IMG/VR virus record: IMGVR_UViG_3300014893_000026
Coordinates: 1 to 9,649 of that record
DNA: 9,649 bases
Source of the DNA: a virus
Lineage: Duplodnaviria > Heunggongvirae > Uroviricota > Caudoviricetes
Reading direction: 5' to 3' (one strand)
Below are positions 1,919 to 9,649 of this stretch, piece by piece. The first letter of the stretch is position 1; the number at the start of each line of letters is the position of its first letter. Below the pieces are notes generated by a model. It did no database searches. It was not told where the DNA came from and saw nothing but the letters and a program-made list of their open reading frames with translations. Made by a program: the position numbers and the translations under genes.

Positions 1919-2136
1919 ATCCTCACCCCGATGTACACAGATGGTGCAATATGTTTGAAAAGATCGGAGTCTATGGGGTAGTTTTTATAGCAAACGTTGT
2001 TCTCAACGGCGCTAAAAAACAGACACATTAAAAATGTGGGTAATTATTTTAAAAGAAAATCATATATTAAATAATAATACGAGATATGTTTTCATATTTA
2101 GTGTACTGTATACGGCCATTTATACAGGAAAAGCCT

Positions 2137-3897: not shown

Positions 3898-4650
3898 TTA
3901 TCTCGTCACCTTTCTCAATTGTGCTTCAGCGTAAGATTCCTCCTGCCAGCACTTTGTAACCAGTTTATCAATGACATTTGCATATCCTTTATACCACTGA
4001 TAATCACTCAGGTCCGGTACCAGCTTCTGGACATGATGCCGCGCCAGTGTGGTTGGTAAACGACTAAACCGTTTTCCATTGCAACGCCCACAAATCTTAT
4101 AAACAGGTGTGCCATGAAGCCGGGTCCTTTTTTCATCCAGGACAATACCTTTACCCTTACACCCTCTGCACGCTGTGCTGACTTCTCCCTTACCATGGCA
4201 ATGCTGACATAGTTCCTTCACCCACTCTTCTTTGATAACAGATTCCCCGCTTCTGGAGTGTTTCACCACTTCGCGCAATACATTATGAAATCCAGTACCA
4301 GCACAATGCTCACAACGAGCCTTACTTGCCGCAGACCTGGAATAATCAGCAAAGGCAAAATTCACAAGGTAAGGAATAATCTGTAGCCGGGTTTCTTCAC
4401 TCAATTTATTCAATGTCGGGTTATCCAGTGCCATCGCGTAATTGAGCAGACCTTCAATCGCAAACTGAGGATCCTGAACACCAACTTTTGCCAGGAATAA
4501 GGCAAACCCAAGCGGTGCTTTCGACTGCACCATCCCCTGCGCAGCCATCACATCCGTAATCGTTAAACCACCAGAGCCTGTCGCCGGTGCGTCATCACTC
4601 AATTTTGGAGATTTTGGGGAGTAATATTTTGGTAAGGCTTCAAGGTTCAT
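3898..4650 (-). CDS. quuQ: Late-gene antiterminator Q
   Basis: 250 aa with Cys/His clusters (CEHCAGTG, CQHCHGKG, CRGCKGKG, CGRCNGKR), directly upstream of PR'/tR'. Length and N-terminus (MNLEALPKYYSPKSPK...) match my recollection of K-12 QuuQ (YdfT). GGAGA 6 nt upstream of the ATG. Confidence 0.88.
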   Translation of the reverse strand: MNLEALPKYYSPKSPKLSDDAPATGSGGLTITDVMAAQGMVQSKAPLGFALFLAKVGVQDPQFAIEGLLNYAMALDNPTLNKLSEETRLQIIPYLVNFAFADYSRSAASKARCEHCAGTGFHNVLREVVKHSRSGESVIKEEWVKELCQHCHGKGEVSTACRGCKGKGIVLDEKRTRLHGTPVYKICGRCNGKRFSRLPTTLARHHVQKLVPDLSDYQWYKGYANVIDKLVTKCWQEESYAEAQLRKVTR

Positions 4651-4677: not shown

Positions 4678-5664
4678 CTATNNNNNNNNNNGCGCACGAT
4701 CGATAAAACGAAATATCAGCTCCAGCTGGGAGCCATACTTCTCTTCAAATGCCACGGTATCCGCATGCAGCTCGTCGTGATGCTTTCTGCACAAAGGCAA
4801 CACAAAAAGGTCATGCGCTTTTGTTCCCATTCCACCCTGACCGTGACCTGTCAGGTGGTGGGGATCATCTGCGGGCTTTCCACAACATGCACACTGCTGT
4901 GTCTTAACCCAGCGCGTGTACTTTTCATTAACCCAGCGGCGACGTTTTGGGCGTAACATAAAAGACTCCGGCGACTCCGGATCCACTTTCAGCGCCAGCA
5001 CCTTTTTCGCCTTATCCTGGATGATGCTGGTGGCAGGAACCGAAGGCACAAGGTCACTTTCCCGGGTGACAGACGGCACAACAGGCTTCGGTAATCTCAG
5101 TGCCTTACGGGCTGCGCTTTCCGGTAAGGCATCCGCCAGGTCATTACGAATCAGCCACCAGCACAGTTCCGGCATTGTCACAACGTGACTGTCATCAAAA
5201 CCGAGATCCCGACGCACAACAGACAACACCCAGCGGGCACAGTTATCCGTTGCCATTAATTCCAGCCGTTCCGTGAACTGATCGCGCAGCTGGTTATCAC
5301 AGTGCCAGCACAGACGGATTGCACCCGGCGCGTGTCGCATTGTGGTCATGTTCTCGCTGTGCCAGTCGGAATGAGGCCACTGGCAGCCTTTTTCACGAAG
5401 TAACCAGCTTTCAAGACATTCCACGCCACCAGCACGACGGATCACTGCCTCATTGCGGAACACGGCCCGAACGGCAGGATCATCCGCCAGCGGTTGTGAT
5501 ACCGCCGGAACGGCACCACTGGCGAAAGATGAATAACGTTCCGGCTCAGGCTCCAGCAGGACACGCCCCTGCATAAACAGGGGCATCAGTTCTGAACCTG
5601 GTCTGAACAATACGATCCCCATACGCGGGGCAATTTCAGGGGTCAGTAGTGCTCTCACGGTCAC
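4678..5664 (-). CDS. DUF968-like protein with C-terminal Cys/His-rich HNH-like motif (YdfU-like); 3' end interrupted by an assembly gap
   Basis: 328-codon ORF; C-terminal CACCGKP...HHLTGHG...CRKHHDELH resembles an HNH/zinc-binding module. Position after Q matches K-12 Qin ydfU (from memory). The last codons span the N-run 4682-4691, so the true C-terminus and stop are uncertain. Start is GTG 5662-5664 or the next GTG (5656-5658); GAGG is upstream. Confidence 0.65.
   Translation of the reverse strand: MTVRALLTPEIAPRMGIVLFRPGSELMPLFMQGRVLLEPEPERYSSFASGAVPAVSQPLADDPAVRAVFRNEAVIRRAGGVECLESWLLREKGCQWPHSDWHSENMTTMRHAPGAIRLCWHCDNQLRDQFTERLELMATDNCARWVLSVVRRDLGFDDSHVVTMPELCWWLIRNDLADALPESAARKALRLPKPVVPSVTRESDLVPSVPATSIIQDKAKKVLALKVDPESPESFMLRPKRRRWVNEKYTRWVKTQQCACCGKPADDPHHLTGHGQGGMGTKAHDLFVLPLCRKHHDELHADTVAFEEKYGSQLELIFRFIDRAXXXX
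4682..4691. other. Assembly gap (10 N)
   Basis: Run of 10 ambiguous bases between the DUF968 gene 3' end and the Q start codon. Confidence 0.99.
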
Positions 5665-5665
5665 C

Positions 5666-6481
5666 TCAATGAACGGTATCGAGCAGCTTTAACAGCTCAG
5701 GGAATCGGGATTCGAAGAAATGCGGCTGCGTCTCGCGCGGATTTGCAGGACTGGTGATGTTCTTGCCGAACATGCAGCCTTTCGCGGTCAGCGACCAGAA
5801 TTTTTTGATGTTGTTAATCGCGGTACGACTGTATCGTTCGCGTTGTTCAACGATCCCCAGCTTCGCCATCTGGTGATATGCCTGATTAGCCGTCAGGCGG
5901 ATACCATACTGCTTCAGCAGTGCACTCAGCGACAGCGTAGGGCGGCTTGAACCATCTGGCGCATCAGCAGGTGCATCAATGGCATAGATCGGCATAAGTT
6001 CAGGAAGACCAGCTACCTTTGATAATTTCTGGTATGCACCAAGTTTCGAGGAGTTTGACAGATTTAGAGTCTTTGCTGCTGATTCAAGCAGAATGACCCC
6101 GGATTTAATTTTGTCAGATGTGGTTTCTTCTGGTGATGAATTATGAAGCGCATCAAAAGTACGTATCACTTTTAAGCTGAATGCCGGGCTGATCCACATT
6201 GCATATGCATAGACCAGCTCTTTACAGACATACGTCCCACCATTGCGCCCCTGAATGGTGATGACAGGAATACTACGGGAATCTCCCGTAGTTTCTTCTT
6301 CCAATAATTCCACAAGAGCCTTCGTTTCAGGACGACGCATAAACTCGTGAACTTCCAGCGAACGGGAGGAGCGATTCTCACCAGCGGCAAGAAGAGCAGC
6401 TTTCTGAAGGTCGTTAAGACAGTAGTTAGATTCGAAGTACTGGCGCACAGAAACGCCATCAATTACAAGCAACTGATTCAT
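5666..6481 (-). CDS. KilA-N domain protein (Roi/antirepressor-like)
   Basis: ORF-track entry 5666..6493 starts at GTG; the likely start is ATG 6479-6481 (MNQLLVIDGVSVRQ...) with GGAGA 6 nt upstream. The N-terminal ~100 aa (GTYVCKELVYAYAMWISPAFSLKVIRTF) resemble the KilA-N DNA-binding domain. Stop is 1 nt from the DUF968 gene start. Confidence 0.78.
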   Translation of the reverse strand: MNQLLVIDGVSVRQYFESNYCLNDLQKAALLAAGENRSSRSLEVHEFMRRPETKALVELLEEETTGDSRSIPVITIQGRNGGTYVCKELVYAYAMWISPAFSLKVIRTFDALHNSSPEETTSDKIKSGVILLESAAKTLNLSNSSKLGAYQKLSKVAGLPELMPIYAIDAPADAPDGSSRPTLSLSALLKQYGIRLTANQAYHQMAKLGIVEQRERYSRTAINNIKKFWSLTAKGCMFGKNITSPANPRETQPHFFESRFPELLKLLDTVH

Positions 6482-6578
6482 TGGTTTCTCCACAAATTTT
6501 TATCCACGAGCGGGACTGCACTCCCTTTTCGTTGATGCAGGATGAACTTACTGCGATTTTTAATAGTTATCAAGGATA

Positions 6579-6598
6579 CACTGTTCATAAATACAGTA
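6579..6598. promoter_or_regulatory. Canonical LexA (SOS) box, CTGT-N8-ACAG
   Basis: caCTGTtcataaatACAGta: CTGT 6581-6584, 8-nt AT-rich spacer, ACAG 6593-6596. Lies in the 162-bp intergenic region between the rusA stop and the KilA-N start, about 100 bp upstream of the KilA-N ATG. Only CTGT-N8-ACAG match I found by eye in the window. Confidence 0.6.
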
Positions 6599-6643
6599 TC
6601 TTTAACGAGGTAATACCCAAATTTAGGGTGTTGCTCAATTCCG

Positions 6644-7039
6644 TTACCGAGTTGCTAATTTGCAACTCGCTTTTTCGTACTTACTGATAGTGATCTCGAC
6701 CTTCCCCTCCGGGATAACCGGTCCCCACTCCACCAGCATTCTTTTCACCTGACTGTCGTCTTCCCACACACCCGCGTGGGTCAGGGCGTCAAACAGCGCC
6801 TTGTTATAGTTGTCCAGATCGCGGATCCGGTTATCCGGAGGAAACAACACGATCTCCACTGAAGCAGGTGCCGACGTTGGTTTTGGCAGACGACGTAACT
6901 GCTCAACTATTGCTGCACACGCCGCGCTCTGGAATTTTCGCCCCGCCGCGCTTATCAGGCTCTTACCAGCAAACGCCCCTTTGTTGGGGTGTCGCCAGTA
7001 CGTGTTCACGCTGGGCGGAAAAGGCAGGATCAGCTTCAT
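6644..7039 (-). CDS. rusA: RusA-family Holliday junction resolvase
   Basis: 131 aa. LPFPPSVNTYWRH and RDLDNYNKALFDALTHAGVWEDDSQV match the recalled RusA motifs LPWPPSNNRYYRH and [26 protein letters not shown]. Start overlaps the upstream gene stop (ATGA). Confidence 0.85.
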   Translation of the reverse strand: MKLILPFPPSVNTYWRHPNKGAFAGKSLISAAGRKFQSAACAAIVEQLRRLPKPTSAPASVEIVLFPPDNRIRDLDNYNKALFDALTHAGVWEDDSQVKRMLVEWGPVIPEGKVEITISKYEKASCKLATR

Positions 7040-7362
7040 ACTTTCAGGCCCCTCTCATGTAACCAGTGGGCTGCACGCAGCCTGGCGTTTTCCTCACCGG
7101 CAAGCAGTGAGCGGATAATCCCGACCGCCTCGCTGTCGTCGTCCTTCACCACGGTATGAAGCGTGATCCCCCGGGCCACACCACGCTTTATCGTGATGAC
7201 GCCTTTTTTCTCCAGTGCGCGAAGATGCTCCACCGCTGCATTCACTGAACGGTATCCCAGCATGGTTGCCACCTCCTGATTGGTTGGCGGGAAGCCACGT
7301 TCTTTCTGATAAGAAATCAGCATATCCAGCACCTGCTGCTGGCATTGAGTTAACGTCGTCAT
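7036..7362 (-). CDS. LexA N-terminal DNA-binding-domain protein lacking the S24 peptidase domain
   Basis: Likely start ATG 7360-7362 (overlaps upstream stop, TAATG). MTTLTQCQQQVLDMLISYQKERGFPPTNQEVATMLGYRSVNAAVEHLRALEKKGVITIKRGVARGITL aligns along its length with recalled E. coli LexA residues ~1-70, including the recognition-helix region (GFRSPNAAEEHLKAL in LexA). Only ~40 further residues follow; no Ser/Lys peptidase domain. Confidence 0.75.
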   Translation of the reverse strand: MTTLTQCQQQVLDMLISYQKERGFPPTNQEVATMLGYRSVNAAVEHLRALEKKGVITIKRGVARGITLHTVVKDDDSEAVGIIRSLLAGEENARLRAAHWLHERGLKV

Positions 7363-7850
7363 TAAGCCCCCACGTAATTCCCTGACAGATACCACTCATC
7401 ACCCGATGCAGCGCGCTTGCTGCTTTTCCGTAAGCACCGCTCACGACGCGCAAGAAAATTGTTTCGCTCTTGCTGGGAGTGGCTTTCACGGAATGCCGCC
7501 ATCCACACCGTTGCAGCACGACGGTATAAGCCCCTTGACTCCAGTTCTTCAGCCTGGCGGGTCAGGCACAAAATCACCCGGGGATCGTTAGTGCCGACAT
7601 AGAAATTGCGCACAGGTCTGGTTTCACGAACTGGTTGTGGTTCCGGCTCCTGCGCTCTCTCAGTCAGGCGCGGGAAATGTCTGCGTGTATCTCCTTCACA
7701 ACGGTGAGCCACACGCCCACTCTGACGTAACTTGCTTGCTGACTGCAGAACGCGCTGCCGTGAGTAACCTGCAAAAGCATCCGCAACGTCTCCGGAAGTA
7801 CACCCCGGATGGGCTTCAATGAATTTCTGAACGTCATTTAACAGACTCAT
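7362..7850 (-). CDS. Putative regulator: N-terminal winged-helix-like region plus C-terminal PerC/Pch-like motif
   Basis: Likely start ATG 7848-7850 (MSLLNDVQKF...) with GGGGG upstream. C-terminal RGLYRRAATVWMAAF...ERNNFLARRERCL resembles the GLWRRA..RW motif recalled for PerC/Pch activators. The PerC assignment is tentative. Confidence 0.55.
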   Translation of the reverse strand: MSLLNDVQKFIEAHPGCTSGDVADAFAGYSRQRVLQSASKLRQSGRVAHRCEGDTRRHFPRLTERAQEPEPQPVRETRPVRNFYVGTNDPRVILCLTRQAEELESRGLYRRAATVWMAAFRESHSQQERNNFLARRERCLRKSSKRAASGDEWYLSGNYVGA

Positions 7851-7852
7851 GA

Positions 7853-8794
7853 TCACCCCCTGAATCCTGCCGGGATCTGGCTGTAGTCCACGTTGTCGTA
7901 ACTGGATTTGAAGTACGGGTCTTCGCGTTTTTCGGTGTACGTGCTGACGGACGGTGATAAGCGCAGGGAAAGCTCATCCCATTTTTCCCGCAACTTCGAC
8001 GGGCTGAGCACGTTACGGCACCAGAACGGATCGCGGTTGACGCGGCTGTACATCTCGCAGATTTGTTTGTGAGTACGACCATCCTGCACACACATCAGGC
8101 GAATTTCGTTTGCCCAGGCTGTCCAGTTCGGTTCTTTGGGACGAACCACCTCGCCGTCACATTCGGCGGCCTGCTCGTACAGGGCGATGATTTTTTTCCA
8201 GAGCCACTGTGCGCAGGTCAAATCATCCTGCGTTCCCCACTGGCGCTTTTTAGGGCTGAATACAACCGCATCAGGATGGCGAGTTAAAAACTCCTGTTCA
8301 GCCGTCTGCGTGTCCGGTTGCGAAGCGTCCGGACGAGAAGTATTTTTATCTGACGGATCATGTTTTGATTTTACTGACGGATCCCCGCCAGATTCTGACG
8401 GGTGAAAACCCGCTTTTTTGCCAGATTTCGACGCATCAAATTTTGACGGGTCAGATTTTGATGCGTCAGATTTTGACGGGTCAGAATCTGACAGTTGAGA
8501 AAATGCCGCTGCCTGAAGCTTCGCAACGTTAAGCTGATAAACATTCGACGCATTGCGGTTACCCTGGCGACGCGCCTTACGCGTTAACCAGCCTTCTGCT
8601 TCCAGCCGTGCGATAGCCGTTCTGACGGTACTCATCCCCGCGCCAATCTGGCGGGCAATGGTTTCAATTGATGGCCAGCACACACCTTCGTCATTACTGA
8701 AATCAGCCAGGCGGGCCATAATTGCCACGCTGGATAACTTCATGCCTGATGCAGCGCAACCATCCCATACATAGCCGGTTAATTTAGTGCTCAT
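7853..8794 (-). CDS. Phage replication initiation protein (O-like), N-terminal winged-helix domain, internal iteron-encoded linker
   Basis: 313 aa. The N-terminus (SVAIMARLADFSNDEGVCWPSIETIARQIGAGMSTVRTAIARLEAEGWL) looks like the HTH domain of phage replication initiators. The central low-complexity SDSDPSKSDASKSDPSKFDASKS region is encoded by tandem DNA repeats. AGAGG upstream of ATG 8792-8794. Confidence 0.7.
   Translation of the reverse strand: MSTKLTGYVWDGCAASGMKLSSVAIMARLADFSNDEGVCWPSIETIARQIGAGMSTVRTAIARLEAEGWLTRKARRQGNRNASNVYQLNVAKLQAAAFSQLSDSDPSKSDASKSDPSKFDASKSGKKAGFHPSESGGDPSVKSKHDPSDKNTSRPDASQPDTQTAEQEFLTRHPDAVVFSPKKRQWGTQDDLTCAQWLWKKIIALYEQAAECDGEVVRPKEPNWTAWANEIRLMCVQDGRTHKQICEMYSRVNRDPFWCRNVLSPSKLREKWDELSLRLSPSVSTYTEKREDPYFKSSYDNVDYSQIPAGFRG
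8340..8500. repeat. Iteron-like array of ~15-bp imperfect direct repeats inside the replication initiator gene (candidate origin)
   Basis: Recurring (T/C)TGACGG / TGA(C/T)GC cores at 8351, 8375, 8396, 8429, 8444, 8458, 8474 (e.g. cagattttgacgggt / cagattttgatgcgt / cagattttgacgggt), with a more AT-rich stretch at 8336-8375 on the gene-downstream side. Confidence 0.6.
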
Positions 8795-8803
8795 GACCGA
8801 CCT

Positions 8804-9142
8804 CTATTTCCCTGAATTTACGACGAAACTGTTCGAGCGGGCTGAAGCACTCATGCTCATAGCCTTCGCGGAGGTAGATAACTCGTTGTGTTTCCGGCTC
8901 CCAACGAATGACTCTGACGGGCACTCCGTAGTGATCTTTGAACCAGCGGTTAACTTGTCGCAAAGGACTGTCTCCTTCTGCCGGTTGAAATCACCCACAG
9001 CCCACTCAGCAAAGCTGTGGGTTACAATTTCCCTGTCACCTGGTACATTAACTGCATAGCAATACTCCACCTTCGCTTTTCCACCCGGTACAGGAAGCGC
9101 AATCAGTTGCGAGCGACGGTAGTGTGTTGTTAAACTGTTCAT
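8804..9142 (-). CDS. Hypothetical 112-aa protein between the CII-like gene and the replication gene
   Basis: ATG 9140-9142 overlaps the upstream gene stop (ATGA); GGAGA 9 nt upstream. Stop is 9 nt before the replication gene start. Same orientation as the operon. No family recognised; the S/A-rich C-terminus and a competing plus-strand ORF (8787..9059) reduce confidence. Confidence 0.4.
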
Positions 9143-9649
9143 GCGTTAGTTTCTCCACAGTCACGACACGCCACGGCGCCCGGAGCTGCACACTCGCGGG
9201 CGTCATTACTTTCTGAAATGCAAAAGATTTTGTAGACCAGTGCTGCATGCTCCTGCAGCTTCGAAATTGAGAGATACAGCTCGTCGTTAATTGCTGTCTT
9301 CTCATGCGGTTCCACCACACCGTCTTCGATTGCCGAACGAATCTGTCTGGAATAACTGCCAATCTGTTCAATGACTTCCAGCAGGCGCTGGTTAATATCC
9401 GCGTTGTCCACATCCTCGACGTCAGGAAGAGACACAAAGACGCCATTTGCAGACTGCGCCACAGCGTCAGCAATGAAGTGAGTTCCACCAGCACGTTGCA
9501 AAATCATTGCCCATCCCAGCGGGAAAATCTGATCGCCATCGGCACGAAGGCGGTTAAATAATGCGTTTTCTGTTACATCCAGCCAGTCAGCTGCTTCAGC
9601 GTAACCACCCGGCAACGCTGCGATAGTTTTTCTGACAGCTTTCACGTAC
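9139..9649 (-). CDS. Phage CII-like regulatory protein (CP76-type), 5' end probably beyond window
   Basis: ORF open to the window edge (the first codon in the track is a GTG, and the frame stays open upstream). [29 protein letters not shown]...VSLPDV resembles the recalled pattern of ~160-aa phage regulatory CII-family proteins. Position upstream of the replication gene fits. Assignment from memory. Confidence 0.45.

What the first reader, a model, noticed from the sequence alone, without database searches (positions are those of the whole stretch)
7036..7362. Phage-encoded LexA DNA-binding domain without the autocleavage domain
The 108-aa product aligns along its length with the LexA N-terminal winged-helix domain, including the recognition-helix region (RSVNAAVEHL versus recalled LexA RSPNAAEEHL), but ends after ~40 more residues with no S24 peptidase domain. 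It therefore could bind SOS boxes yet would not be inactivated by RecA-stimulated self-cleavage. Encoded ~450 bp from a canonical SOS box (6581-6596), it may act as an uncleavable LexA mimic that holds the KilA-N/Q promoter, or host SOS genes, repressed. Alternatively it could compete with or pair with host LexA. I do not recall this being characterised in lambdoid phages.
Basis: partly seen in the sequence, partly recalled or inferred. Interest (0 to 1): 0.75.

Follow-up and report, generated by a model that had tools for sequence, protein, structure and literature searches.

The report
Truncated LexA-like regulator in lambdoid prophage
A very common E. coli prophage gene encodes the DNA-binding half of the SOS repressor LexA joined to a short helical tail instead of the self-cleaving half; it is real, under strong selection and already annotated, but nobody has tested it and its DNA target is probably not the standard SOS box.

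Summary
Window 7036-7362 (minus strand) encodes a 108-aa protein. Residues 1-69 are a full LexA winged-helix domain: Pfam PF01726 E 2.9e-19, 51% identical to E. coli LexA, rmsd 1.0 A. There is no S24 peptidase domain. Instead there is a conserved two-helix tail.

The gene overlaps the PerC-like gene upstream and rusA downstream, so it sits in the phage early-right operon. It is in 2233 of 5426 complete E. coli genomes and in phages SfV, SfII, SfIV, mEp460 and Stx2c phages. It is annotated "LexA family transcriptional regulator". I found no functional study.

- That box accompanies only about 7% of gene copies.
- The base-contact residue Glu44, present in nearly all the LexA-like sequences compared, is never Glu in this family, and Glu45 varies.

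There is still a real link to SOS. In a sister clade, 66 of 73 loci place the gene behind a LexA-box promoter, usually headed by dinI.

The closest characterised analogue is GIL01 gp6, a truncated LexA homologue that binds its own palindrome. My best reading is a RecA-insensitive dimeric regulator with its own operator. Moderately interesting.

The parts
7036..7362 (-). CDS of the 108-aa LexA-like protein (stop codon 7036-7038)
   Evidence: ORF list; PF01726 E 2.9e-19; phrog_362 E 2.4e-59; pN/pS 0.05
7156..7362 (-). Residues 1-69: LexA-type winged helix-turn-helix DNA-binding domain
   Evidence: Aligned to LexA residues 2-69; AF2 secondary structure; rmsd 1.0 A to 3jso
7207..7245 (-). Residues 40-52: recognition helix VNAAVEHLRALEK. 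Ser39, Asn41, Ala42 and Glu45 are kept; Glu44 is Val
   Evidence: Alignments; contact residues from PMC3091678
7039..7155 (-). Residues 70-108: linker plus conserved two-helix tail (helices 75-87 and 93-102), the presumed dimerisation element that replaces the S24 domain
   Evidence: AF2 model; tail conserved in relatives at 39-49% identity; pN/pS 0.18. Dimerisation is inferred, not shown
7362..7856 (-). Upstream PerC-family gene (yfdN-like). Its stop overlaps the LexA-like start as TAATG
   Evidence: PF06069; sequence read; RefSeq annotation
6644..7039 (-). Downstream rusA (Holliday-junction resolvase). Its start overlaps the LexA-like stop as ATGA. The neighbour is conserved in nearly all relatives examined
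   Evidence: PF05866; sequence; synteny
6579..6598 (.). Consensus-type SOS (LexA) box, read TACTGTATTTATGAACAGTG on the minus strand, in the rusA/KilA-N spacer. A minority feature among gene copies
   Evidence: Only perfect CTGT-N8-ACAG in the window; present at 203 of 2855 gene places
5666..6481 (-). KilA-N domain gene downstream of the SOS box; the first gene the box would control
   Evidence: PF04383; annotated as an 816-nt CDS in RefSeq
4678..5664 (-). DUF968/HNH-like gene (ydfU-like), part of the conserved LexA-like/RusA/DUF968/Q module
   Evidence: PF06147; synteny
3898..4650 (-). Q antiterminator (ydfT-like), the last gene of the conserved module
   Evidence: PF03589; synteny

Best explanation
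The gene encodes a LexA-derived DNA-binding regulator that RecA* cannot inactivate. It consists of a LexA winged-helix domain followed by a short two-helix tail, which most likely makes the protein a dimer in place of the lost S24 domain. It is translated as part of the phage early-right operon (PerC-like, LexA-like, RusA, then KilA-N, DUF968 and Q). It is therefore made after prophage induction or infection, when host LexA is low. I judge that it most likely binds its own palindromic operator. That operator would be related to the SOS box but not identical to it, on phage and/or host DNA. It would tune phage development or host genes in the way GIL01 gp6 does, rather than acting as a general LexA surrogate.

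Shown: the fold, the absence of the cleavage domain, the operon position, purifying selection, and the conserved synteny.
Inferred: dimerisation, DNA binding in vivo, the nature of the target, and the sign of regulation.
For: - Fold and domain content.
- Strong purifying selection on both the DNA-binding domain and the tail.
- The tail is conserved at 39-49% identity across Klebsiella, Enterobacter, Citrobacter, Salmonella and metagenomic prophages.
- Overlapping start and stop codons with both neighbours.
- Synteny [methylase]-LexA-like-RusA-(KilA-N/ANT)-DUF968-Q is kept across phages with different immunity, replication and Q modules.
- Glu44 is systematically replaced by a hydrophobic or small residue, and position 45 varies: E, L, T, S, I, D, G. 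Nearly all the S24-bearing LexA sequences found in the same search keep NAAE[E/D]H. That pattern fits diversified operators, not one conserved host target.
- GIL01 gp6 is 44% identical to its host's LexA domain and binds a different palindrome (PMC6182141).
- No SOS box lies within 1.5 kb upstream of the gene in 77 close loci. Genuine lexA genes fetched in the same scan carry their autoregulatory boxes about 250-350 bp upstream.
Against: - No operator was identified. Scans for palindromes and for CTGT/ACAG half-sites at other spacings gave nothing convincing.
- The window's clade keeps four of the five LexA contact residues and is 51% identical to E. coli LexA, so residual or full SOS-box binding cannot be excluded.
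- The link with dinI and LexA-box promoters in the sister clade points towards an SOS-related role.
Confidence: 0.45

Rival explanations
1. Uncleavable LexA surrogate. The protein dimerises through its tail and binds canonical CTGT-N8-ACAG boxes. Once host LexA has been cleaved, it re-silences the host SOS regulon, LexA-controlled genes of rival prophages and colicins, and the phage's own SOS-box promoters.
For: - 51% identity and rmsd 1.0 A to the LexA DNA-binding domain; Ser39, Asn41, Ala42 and Glu45 are kept.
- From my own knowledge: LexA(1-87) fused to heterologous dimerisation domains represses SOS operators (LexA-based bacterial two-hybrid systems), so this architecture is sufficient in principle.
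- An SOS box lies 440 bp away in this window.
- Sister-clade genes are co-transcribed with dinI, an SOS damper, or with a RecA_C-like ORF from LexA-box promoters in 66 of 73 loci.
- The protein is produced exactly when LexA is depleted.
Against: - Glu44 is absent from the whole family, and Glu45 is absent from many members, including those in the SOS-box operons (helices SSNAVLLH and SQNTVFIH).
- In LexA the CTG/CAG triplet is the invariant part of the operator (PMC5999292). I infer that the two glutamates read it.
- Only about 7% of E. coli copies have the nearby box.
- A different dimerisation element is unlikely to reproduce LexA's strict half-site spacing.
- The gp6 precedent has a changed specificity (PMC6182141).
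Confidence: 0.25
2. DNA-processing accessory rather than a transcription factor. The winged-helix protein works with the adjacent RusA resolvase and the DUF968/HNH nuclease in recombination, replication restart or DNA maturation.
For: The gene lies upstream of rusA, directly adjacent or separated by one small ORF, in eleven of the twelve divergent contexts examined. The exception lacks rusA and runs on to DUF968. DUF968 follows rusA wherever the contig extends far enough. DNA methylases often lie just upstream.
Against: - Gene order in phage nin-like regions often reflects inheritance of a module rather than a physical partnership.
- In L113 an opposite-strand gene separates the two genes, and in L117 rusA is absent.
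- The sequence-specific recognition helix is under very strong constraint (pN/pS 0.01), as expected for an operator-binding protein.
Confidence: 0.1
3. Protein decoy. The retained LexA linker and cleavage-region remnant (LLAGEE against LexA VAAGEP) lets the protein engage RecA*, the LexA active site or ClpXP, and so modulates LexA turnover rather than binding DNA.
For: Sequence similarity to LexA runs to about residue 91, through the Ala84-Gly85 region.
Against: - The Ala-Gly pair is not conserved: ANE in Citrobacter, VGE in a Salmonella member, and unrelated residues in distant relatives.
- The region is predicted to be helical.
- From my own knowledge: RecA* engages the LexA C-terminal domain, which is absent here.
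Confidence: 0.05
4. Non-functional remnant of a captured lexA gene.
For: It looks like a truncated lexA.
Against: pN/pS is 0.05 across 41 alleles. Length and tail are conserved at 40% identity. Translation is coupled with both neighbours.
Confidence: 0.02

Closest known systems
GIL01 gp6 (Bacillus thuringiensis tectivirus; Fornelos et al. 2018, PMC6182141)
   Same: Phage-encoded, LexA DNA-binding domain only, no S24 domain. It is made after LexA-controlled or induction-dependent early transcription. Its identity to the host LexA domain is similar (44% against 51% here).
   Different: gp6 is 66 aa with no C-terminal tail. No significant pairwise BLASTP similarity to the window protein, so the two truncations arose independently. 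It belongs to a tectivirus, not a lambdoid phage. Its function is shown (activator of late promoter P3 through GaCACA..TGTGaC); nothing is shown for the window protein.
Host LexA (E. coli; PDB 1lea, 3jso)
   Same: Same winged-helix fold. Ser39, Asn41, Ala42, Glu45, Lys53 and Arg64-Gly65 are conserved. A sequence remnant of the linker and cleavage region is present.
   Different: No S24 peptidase/dimerisation domain. Glu44 is Val, Arg28 is Asn and Arg7 is Cys. No autoregulatory SOS box lies upstream. A helical tail is present instead.
LexA-controlled dinI-antirepressor-irsA operon of Gifsy prophages (Lemire et al. 2011, PMC3121763)
   Same: The sister clade of this family sits in the same kind of unit: terminator, sigma-70 promoter with an SOS box, dinI, a small ORF, then the nin-like genes and Q.
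   Different: In Gifsy-1 and Gifsy-2 the third gene (irsA homologue) is a DUF1367 protein, not a LexA-like one. The Gifsy antirepressor GftA shows no similarity to the small ORF phrog_1813. The window's own gene is not in such an SOS-box unit.
Engineered LexA(1-87)-dimerisation-domain fusions (bacterial two-hybrid reporters; from my own knowledge)
   Same: LexA DNA-binding domain plus a foreign dimeriser, uncleavable by RecA*.
   Different: The engineered proteins keep the wild-type recognition helix. The natural family does not.

Membership tests
LexA repressor (TIGR00498 equivalog) | N-terminal LexA winged-helix DNA-binding domain | tested here: met
   PF01726 E 2.9e-19; 3jso rmsd 1.0 A
LexA repressor (TIGR00498 equivalog) | C-terminal S24 peptidase domain with the Ser119/Lys156 dyad and an Ala84-Gly85 cleavage site | tested here: not met
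   No S24 hit. TIGR00498 scores 71 bits against a cut-off of 110.95 and matches only profile positions 1-91 of 203. The protein ends at residue 108.
LexA repressor (TIGR00498 equivalog) | Recognition-helix contact residues Ser39, Asn41, Ala42, Glu44, Glu45 | tested here: not met
   Glu44 is Val. No family member has Glu at 44, whereas nearly all the S24-bearing hits do.
LexA repressor (TIGR00498 equivalog) | Autoregulatory SOS box upstream of the gene | tested here: not met
   0 of 77 close loci have a box or near-box within 1.5 kb upstream. True lexA loci from the same scan do.
Stand-alone phage LexA-DBD regulators (GIL01 gp6 type) | [quoted passage not shown] | tested here: met
   Many such viral proteins are in BFVD.
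Stand-alone phage LexA-DBD regulators (GIL01 gp6 type) | Sequence relatedness to gp6 itself | tested here: not met
   BLASTP finds no alignment. The two share only the Pfam domain and were derived independently.
Stand-alone phage LexA-DBD regulators (GIL01 gp6 type) | Binds its own palindromic operator, distinct from the host LexA box, and activates a late promoter | not testable with these tools
   No operator found by palindrome or half-site scans. This needs EMSA or ChIP.
PHROG 362 / RefSeq 'LexA family transcriptional regulator' of lambdoid prophages | Full-length match including the C-terminal tail | tested here: met
   phrog_362 E 2.4e-59, protein residues 1-108 against profile 1-106 of 106. 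95-100% nucleotide identity to RefSeq-annotated genes.
SOS-box-controlled dinI operon module (sister clade) | Consensus LexA box within about 0.4-0.7 kb upstream in the same transcription unit | tested here: not met
   Met in 66 of 73 sister-clade loci but not for the window's clade.

The most novel reading that the evidence does not exclude
The family is a phage-borne off-switch for the SOS response: an uncleavable LexA surrogate that re-occupies SOS boxes after host LexA has been destroyed. It would silence host SOS genes, the LexA-controlled antirepressors, colicins and tailocins of competing elements, and the phage's own SOS-box promoters. In the sister clade it would be co-expressed with DinI from a LexA-controlled operon as a two-pronged shut-off, with DinI acting on RecA* and the LexA-like protein acting on operators. 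Because it is present in about 40% of E. coli genomes and in Stx2c phages, it would shape SOS dynamics, competition between prophages and possibly Shiga-toxin output.
Probability: 0.2. Interest if true: 0.8.

Novelty: new member of a known kind. Interest (0 to 1): 0.45.

Why it matters
The gene is one of the commonest prophage genes in E. coli and Shigella. It is in 41% of complete E. coli genomes, in the serotype-converting phages SfII, SfIV and SfV, and in Stx2c phages. Yet its only functional label is inherited from LexA.

If it binds SOS boxes, a large share of E. coli strains carry a RecA-proof repressor. Such a repressor could blunt or reshape the SOS response, mutagenesis, cross-induction of prophages and toxin release during antibiotic stress.

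If it has its own operator, it is an unrecognised regulator of the nin-Q region of lambdoid phages, and a second, independent case of a phage turning the host LexA domain into a private transcription factor.

Either answer is within reach of simple experiments.

Tried and rejected
1. I took the LexA-like gene of the sister clade to be the 'irsA' homologue of the Gifsy dinI-antirepressor-irsA operon. Rejected: Gifsy-2 STM1020 is DUF1367, and GftA is unrelated to the small ORF phrog_1813.

2. A retained Ala-Gly cleavage site (LLAGEE) as a trans-cleavage or decoy element. Rejected as a family feature, because it is not conserved.

3. Operator hunting found only replication iterons, terminators and coding-sequence coincidences. 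I tried inverted repeats in the window, 6+6 palindromes at spacings 2-12 in four phage regions, and CTGT-Nk-ACAG at k = 0-20 across 86 close loci, 84 sister-clade loci and 6 distant loci. The only oddity is CTGTATA-N8-TATACAG at 2106-2127.

5. The PADLOC scan of the module gave nothing meaningful.

6. Looking up residue-by-residue LexA-DNA contacts from the 2010 structure paper failed because the paper is not held. I used secondary sources instead (PMC3091678, PMC5999292).

7. The promoter scan found no consensus sigma-70 promoter in 6300-8000. The promoter served by the window's SOS box is therefore assigned by position only.

Full report
**What is there**

The window is the early-right, nin-like and lysis region of an SfIV/mEp460/Qin-type lambdoid prophage of E. 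coli, read on the minus strand. The gene order is:
- a CII-like gene (9139-9645)
- a replication protein with internal iterons (7853-8794)
- a PerC-like gene (7362-7856)
- the LexA-like gene (7036-7362)
- rusA (6644-7039)
- a 150-bp spacer holding an SOS box
- a KilA-N gene (5666-6481)
- DUF968/HNH (4678-5664)
- the Q antiterminator (3898-4650)
- cspF and cspB morons, then holin and lysozyme

The same DNA, at 98-99% identity, is annotated in Shigella phage SfIV and in many E. coli chromosomes.

- The 108-aa product matches Pfam LexA_DNA_bind end to end (E 2.9e-19) and has no S24 domain.
- It aligns with E. coli LexA residues 2-69, including RSVNAAVEHL against RSPNAAEEHL.
- An AlphaFold2 model (pLDDT 81.7) gives the three helices and two-strand wing of LexA, then a low-confidence linker (residues 71-75), then two helices at 75-87 and 93-102.
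- Foldseek puts the LexA-DNA complex 3jso first, at rmsd 1.0 A and 51% identity over 67 residues.
- The NCBIfam LexA equivalog model scores 71 bits against a cut-off of 111 and matches only the first 91 of its 203 positions.
- The gene's ATG overlaps the PerC-like stop as TAATG. Its TGA overlaps the rusA ATG as ATGA. It is therefore translated as part of the early-right operon.
- Among 41 distinct E. coli alleles, pN/pS is 0.05 overall, 0.01 in the DNA-binding domain and 0.18 in the tail.

It is a working gene, not debris.

**How common and how well known**

The gene is at 2855 places in 2233 of 5426 complete E. coli genomes. It is also in phages SfV (orf42), SfII, SfIV, mEp460, cdtI, Stx2a_1447 and fifteen Stx2c phages. 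Its labels include 'LexA family transcriptional regulator', 'LexA DNA binding domain protein', 'transcriptional repressor' and, wrongly, 'SOS-response repressor and protease LexA'. It is PHROG 362.

Ten literature searches found only annotation-level mentions, for example pham 237 in a Stx-phage survey (PMC8136144). None was a functional study.

**The wider family**

An exhaustive profile search found full-length relatives at 39-49% identity. They keep the tail motif (..L.R.L.AGE..AR..A...L...G) and come from Klebsiella, Enterobacter, Cedecea, Citrobacter, Salmonella and metagenomes. The same search also found many other short LexA-domain-only proteins.

Twelve divergent contexts, including the window's own type, show a conserved order: [DNA methylase]-LexA-like-RusA-(KilA-N or Rha/ANT)-DUF968-Q. 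This order persists next to quite different immunity, replication and Q modules.

Stand-alone LexA domains are also frequent among predicted viral structures.

**The SOS-box question**

The box at 6581-6596 is the only perfect CTGT-N8-ACAG in the window, and by my count it matches the 20-bp consensus at 16 of 20 positions. But it belongs to one allele of the rusA/KilA-N junction.
- Of 82 close loci, 13 carry it. Another 68 have a different KilA-N allele starting 25 bp after rusA, with no box.
- In complete genomes the spacer is at 203 places, against 2855 for the gene.
- No box or near-box lies within 1.5 kb upstream of the gene in 77 close loci. Genuine lexA genes caught in the same scan show their autoregulatory boxes.

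**An unexpected real link to SOS**

A sister clade (118-135 aa, with an N-terminal extension) is laid out differently. The order is an intrinsic terminator, a sigma-70 promoter with a consensus LexA box, then dinI. In one case a 95-aa RecA_C-domain ORF replaces dinI, and in others nothing stands there. Next come a 75-96-aa ORF (phrog_1813), the LexA-like gene, a 67-aa ORF (phrog_1212), and then RusA, DUF968 and Q.

In 66 of 73 such loci a perfect box lies within 1.5 kb upstream. Equal-sized control windows have one in 4 of 69 and 0 of 80 loci.

This is the architecture of the LexA-controlled dinI-antirepressor operon of Gifsy prophages (PMC3121763). However, the Gifsy gene in the corresponding position (irsA homologue) is DUF1367, not LexA-like. 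The Gifsy antirepressor is also unrelated to phrog_1813.

So in that clade host LexA controls the LexA-like gene. That makes the protein appear when LexA disappears. The same happens in the window's clade by way of CI cleavage and PR.

**Does it bind SOS boxes?**

For:
- Four of the five LexA contact residues are kept in the window's clade.
- Identity to the LexA domain is high.
- LexA(1-87) plus any dimeriser is a competent SOS-operator repressor (my own knowledge, not tested here).
- The sister clade sits in dinI and SOS-promoter company.

Against:
- Position 44 is never Glu in the family (V, A, T, F, L or Y). Nearly all the S24-bearing LexA sequences in the same search read NAAE[E/D]H there.
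- Position 45 is E, L, T, S, I, D or G.
- The members inside SOS-box operons have the most divergent helices (SSNAVLLH, SQNTVFIH), yet their upstream boxes are fully canonical. Those boxes serve host LexA.
- The CTG/CAG triplet is the invariant core of the operator (PMC5999292). The two glutamates are listed among the contact residues (PMC3091678). That they read this triplet is my inference.
- A new dimerisation element would hardly reproduce LexA's strict spacing.
- The one studied precedent, GIL01 gp6, is 44% identical to its host LexA domain and binds a different palindrome, where it activates the late promoter (PMC6182141).
- gp6 has no tail and no detectable pairwise similarity to this protein, so the two are independent inventions of the same idea.

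**Verdict**

I put about 0.45 on a private-operator regulator of the gp6 type. A decoy role or a pseudogene gets little.

I could not find the operator and could not model a dimer.

The finding is a correct observation of a very common, annotated but untested family. It is moderately interesting, mainly because simple experiments would settle a question that bears on SOS dynamics in a large share of E. coli strains.

Noticed in passing
window 2106-2127: CTGTATACGGCCATTTATACAG: two perfect consensus SOS half-sites (CTGTATA and TATACAG) set 6 bp further apart than in a LexA box. It ends 10 bp upstream of the ynfU start (2137). It recurs in L001 and six other loci. It could be chance, or a site for a LexA-type domain with a different dimer geometry.
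   Followed up: partly
window 8422-8485: Four and a third copies of a 15-bp iteron (CAGATTTTGACGGGT) inside the replication-protein gene, which there encodes the repetitive PSKSDASKSD stretch. Probably the phage origin.
   Followed up: partly
window 4682-4691: A run of 10 N inside the 3' end of the DUF968 gene: an assembly gap or a masked stretch.
   Followed up: no
window 6648-6669: A 22-bp palindrome CGAGTTGCTAA/TTTGCAACTCG at the 3' end of rusA, just upstream of the SOS-box spacer. It was seen only where the window-type rusA/KilA-N junction is present (window, L001, L002). On the coding strand no T-run follows it, so it is not an obvious terminator.
   Followed up: no
window 5666-6643: The window-type KilA-N gene has its own 150-bp upstream spacer with an SOS box. 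The commoner allele is fused to the rusA operon. This looks like a LexA-controlled moron or candidate antirepressor in a phage whose CI-like repressor is already of the S24 (cleavable) type. No consensus promoter was found by the scan.
   Followed up: partly
L112 (mEp460) 7971-7990 and 17022-17041; L111 about 10741: Consensus SOS boxes inside the cI-like repressor gene and over the start of a DNA methyltransferase placed between Q and the holin. The same box-plus-methylase pair occurs in an unrelated Salmonella prophage.
   Followed up: no
L114 4975-5262: A 95-aa ORF with a RecA C-terminal domain (PF21096, E 9e-10) heads the SOS-box operon in place of dinI. Possibly another RecA-filament modulator.
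   Followed up: no
L107, L111, L114, L117, L165 (ORF just upstream of the LexA-like gene): A small conserved ORF, scored as phrog_1813 in L107, L108 and L111 (75-82 aa, or 124 aa with an upstream start in L108). ORFs of 75-96 aa stand at the same position in L114, L117 and L165. It occupies the position of the Gifsy antirepressor in phages whose repressors lack an S24 domain, so it is a candidate new antirepressor family. No similarity to GftA.
   Followed up: partly
proteins P0128, P0130, P0151, P0168, P0173: Proteins of 220-350 aa with two tandem LexA DNA-binding domains and no S24 domain; their recognition helices read SPNGVM.H.
   Followed up: no
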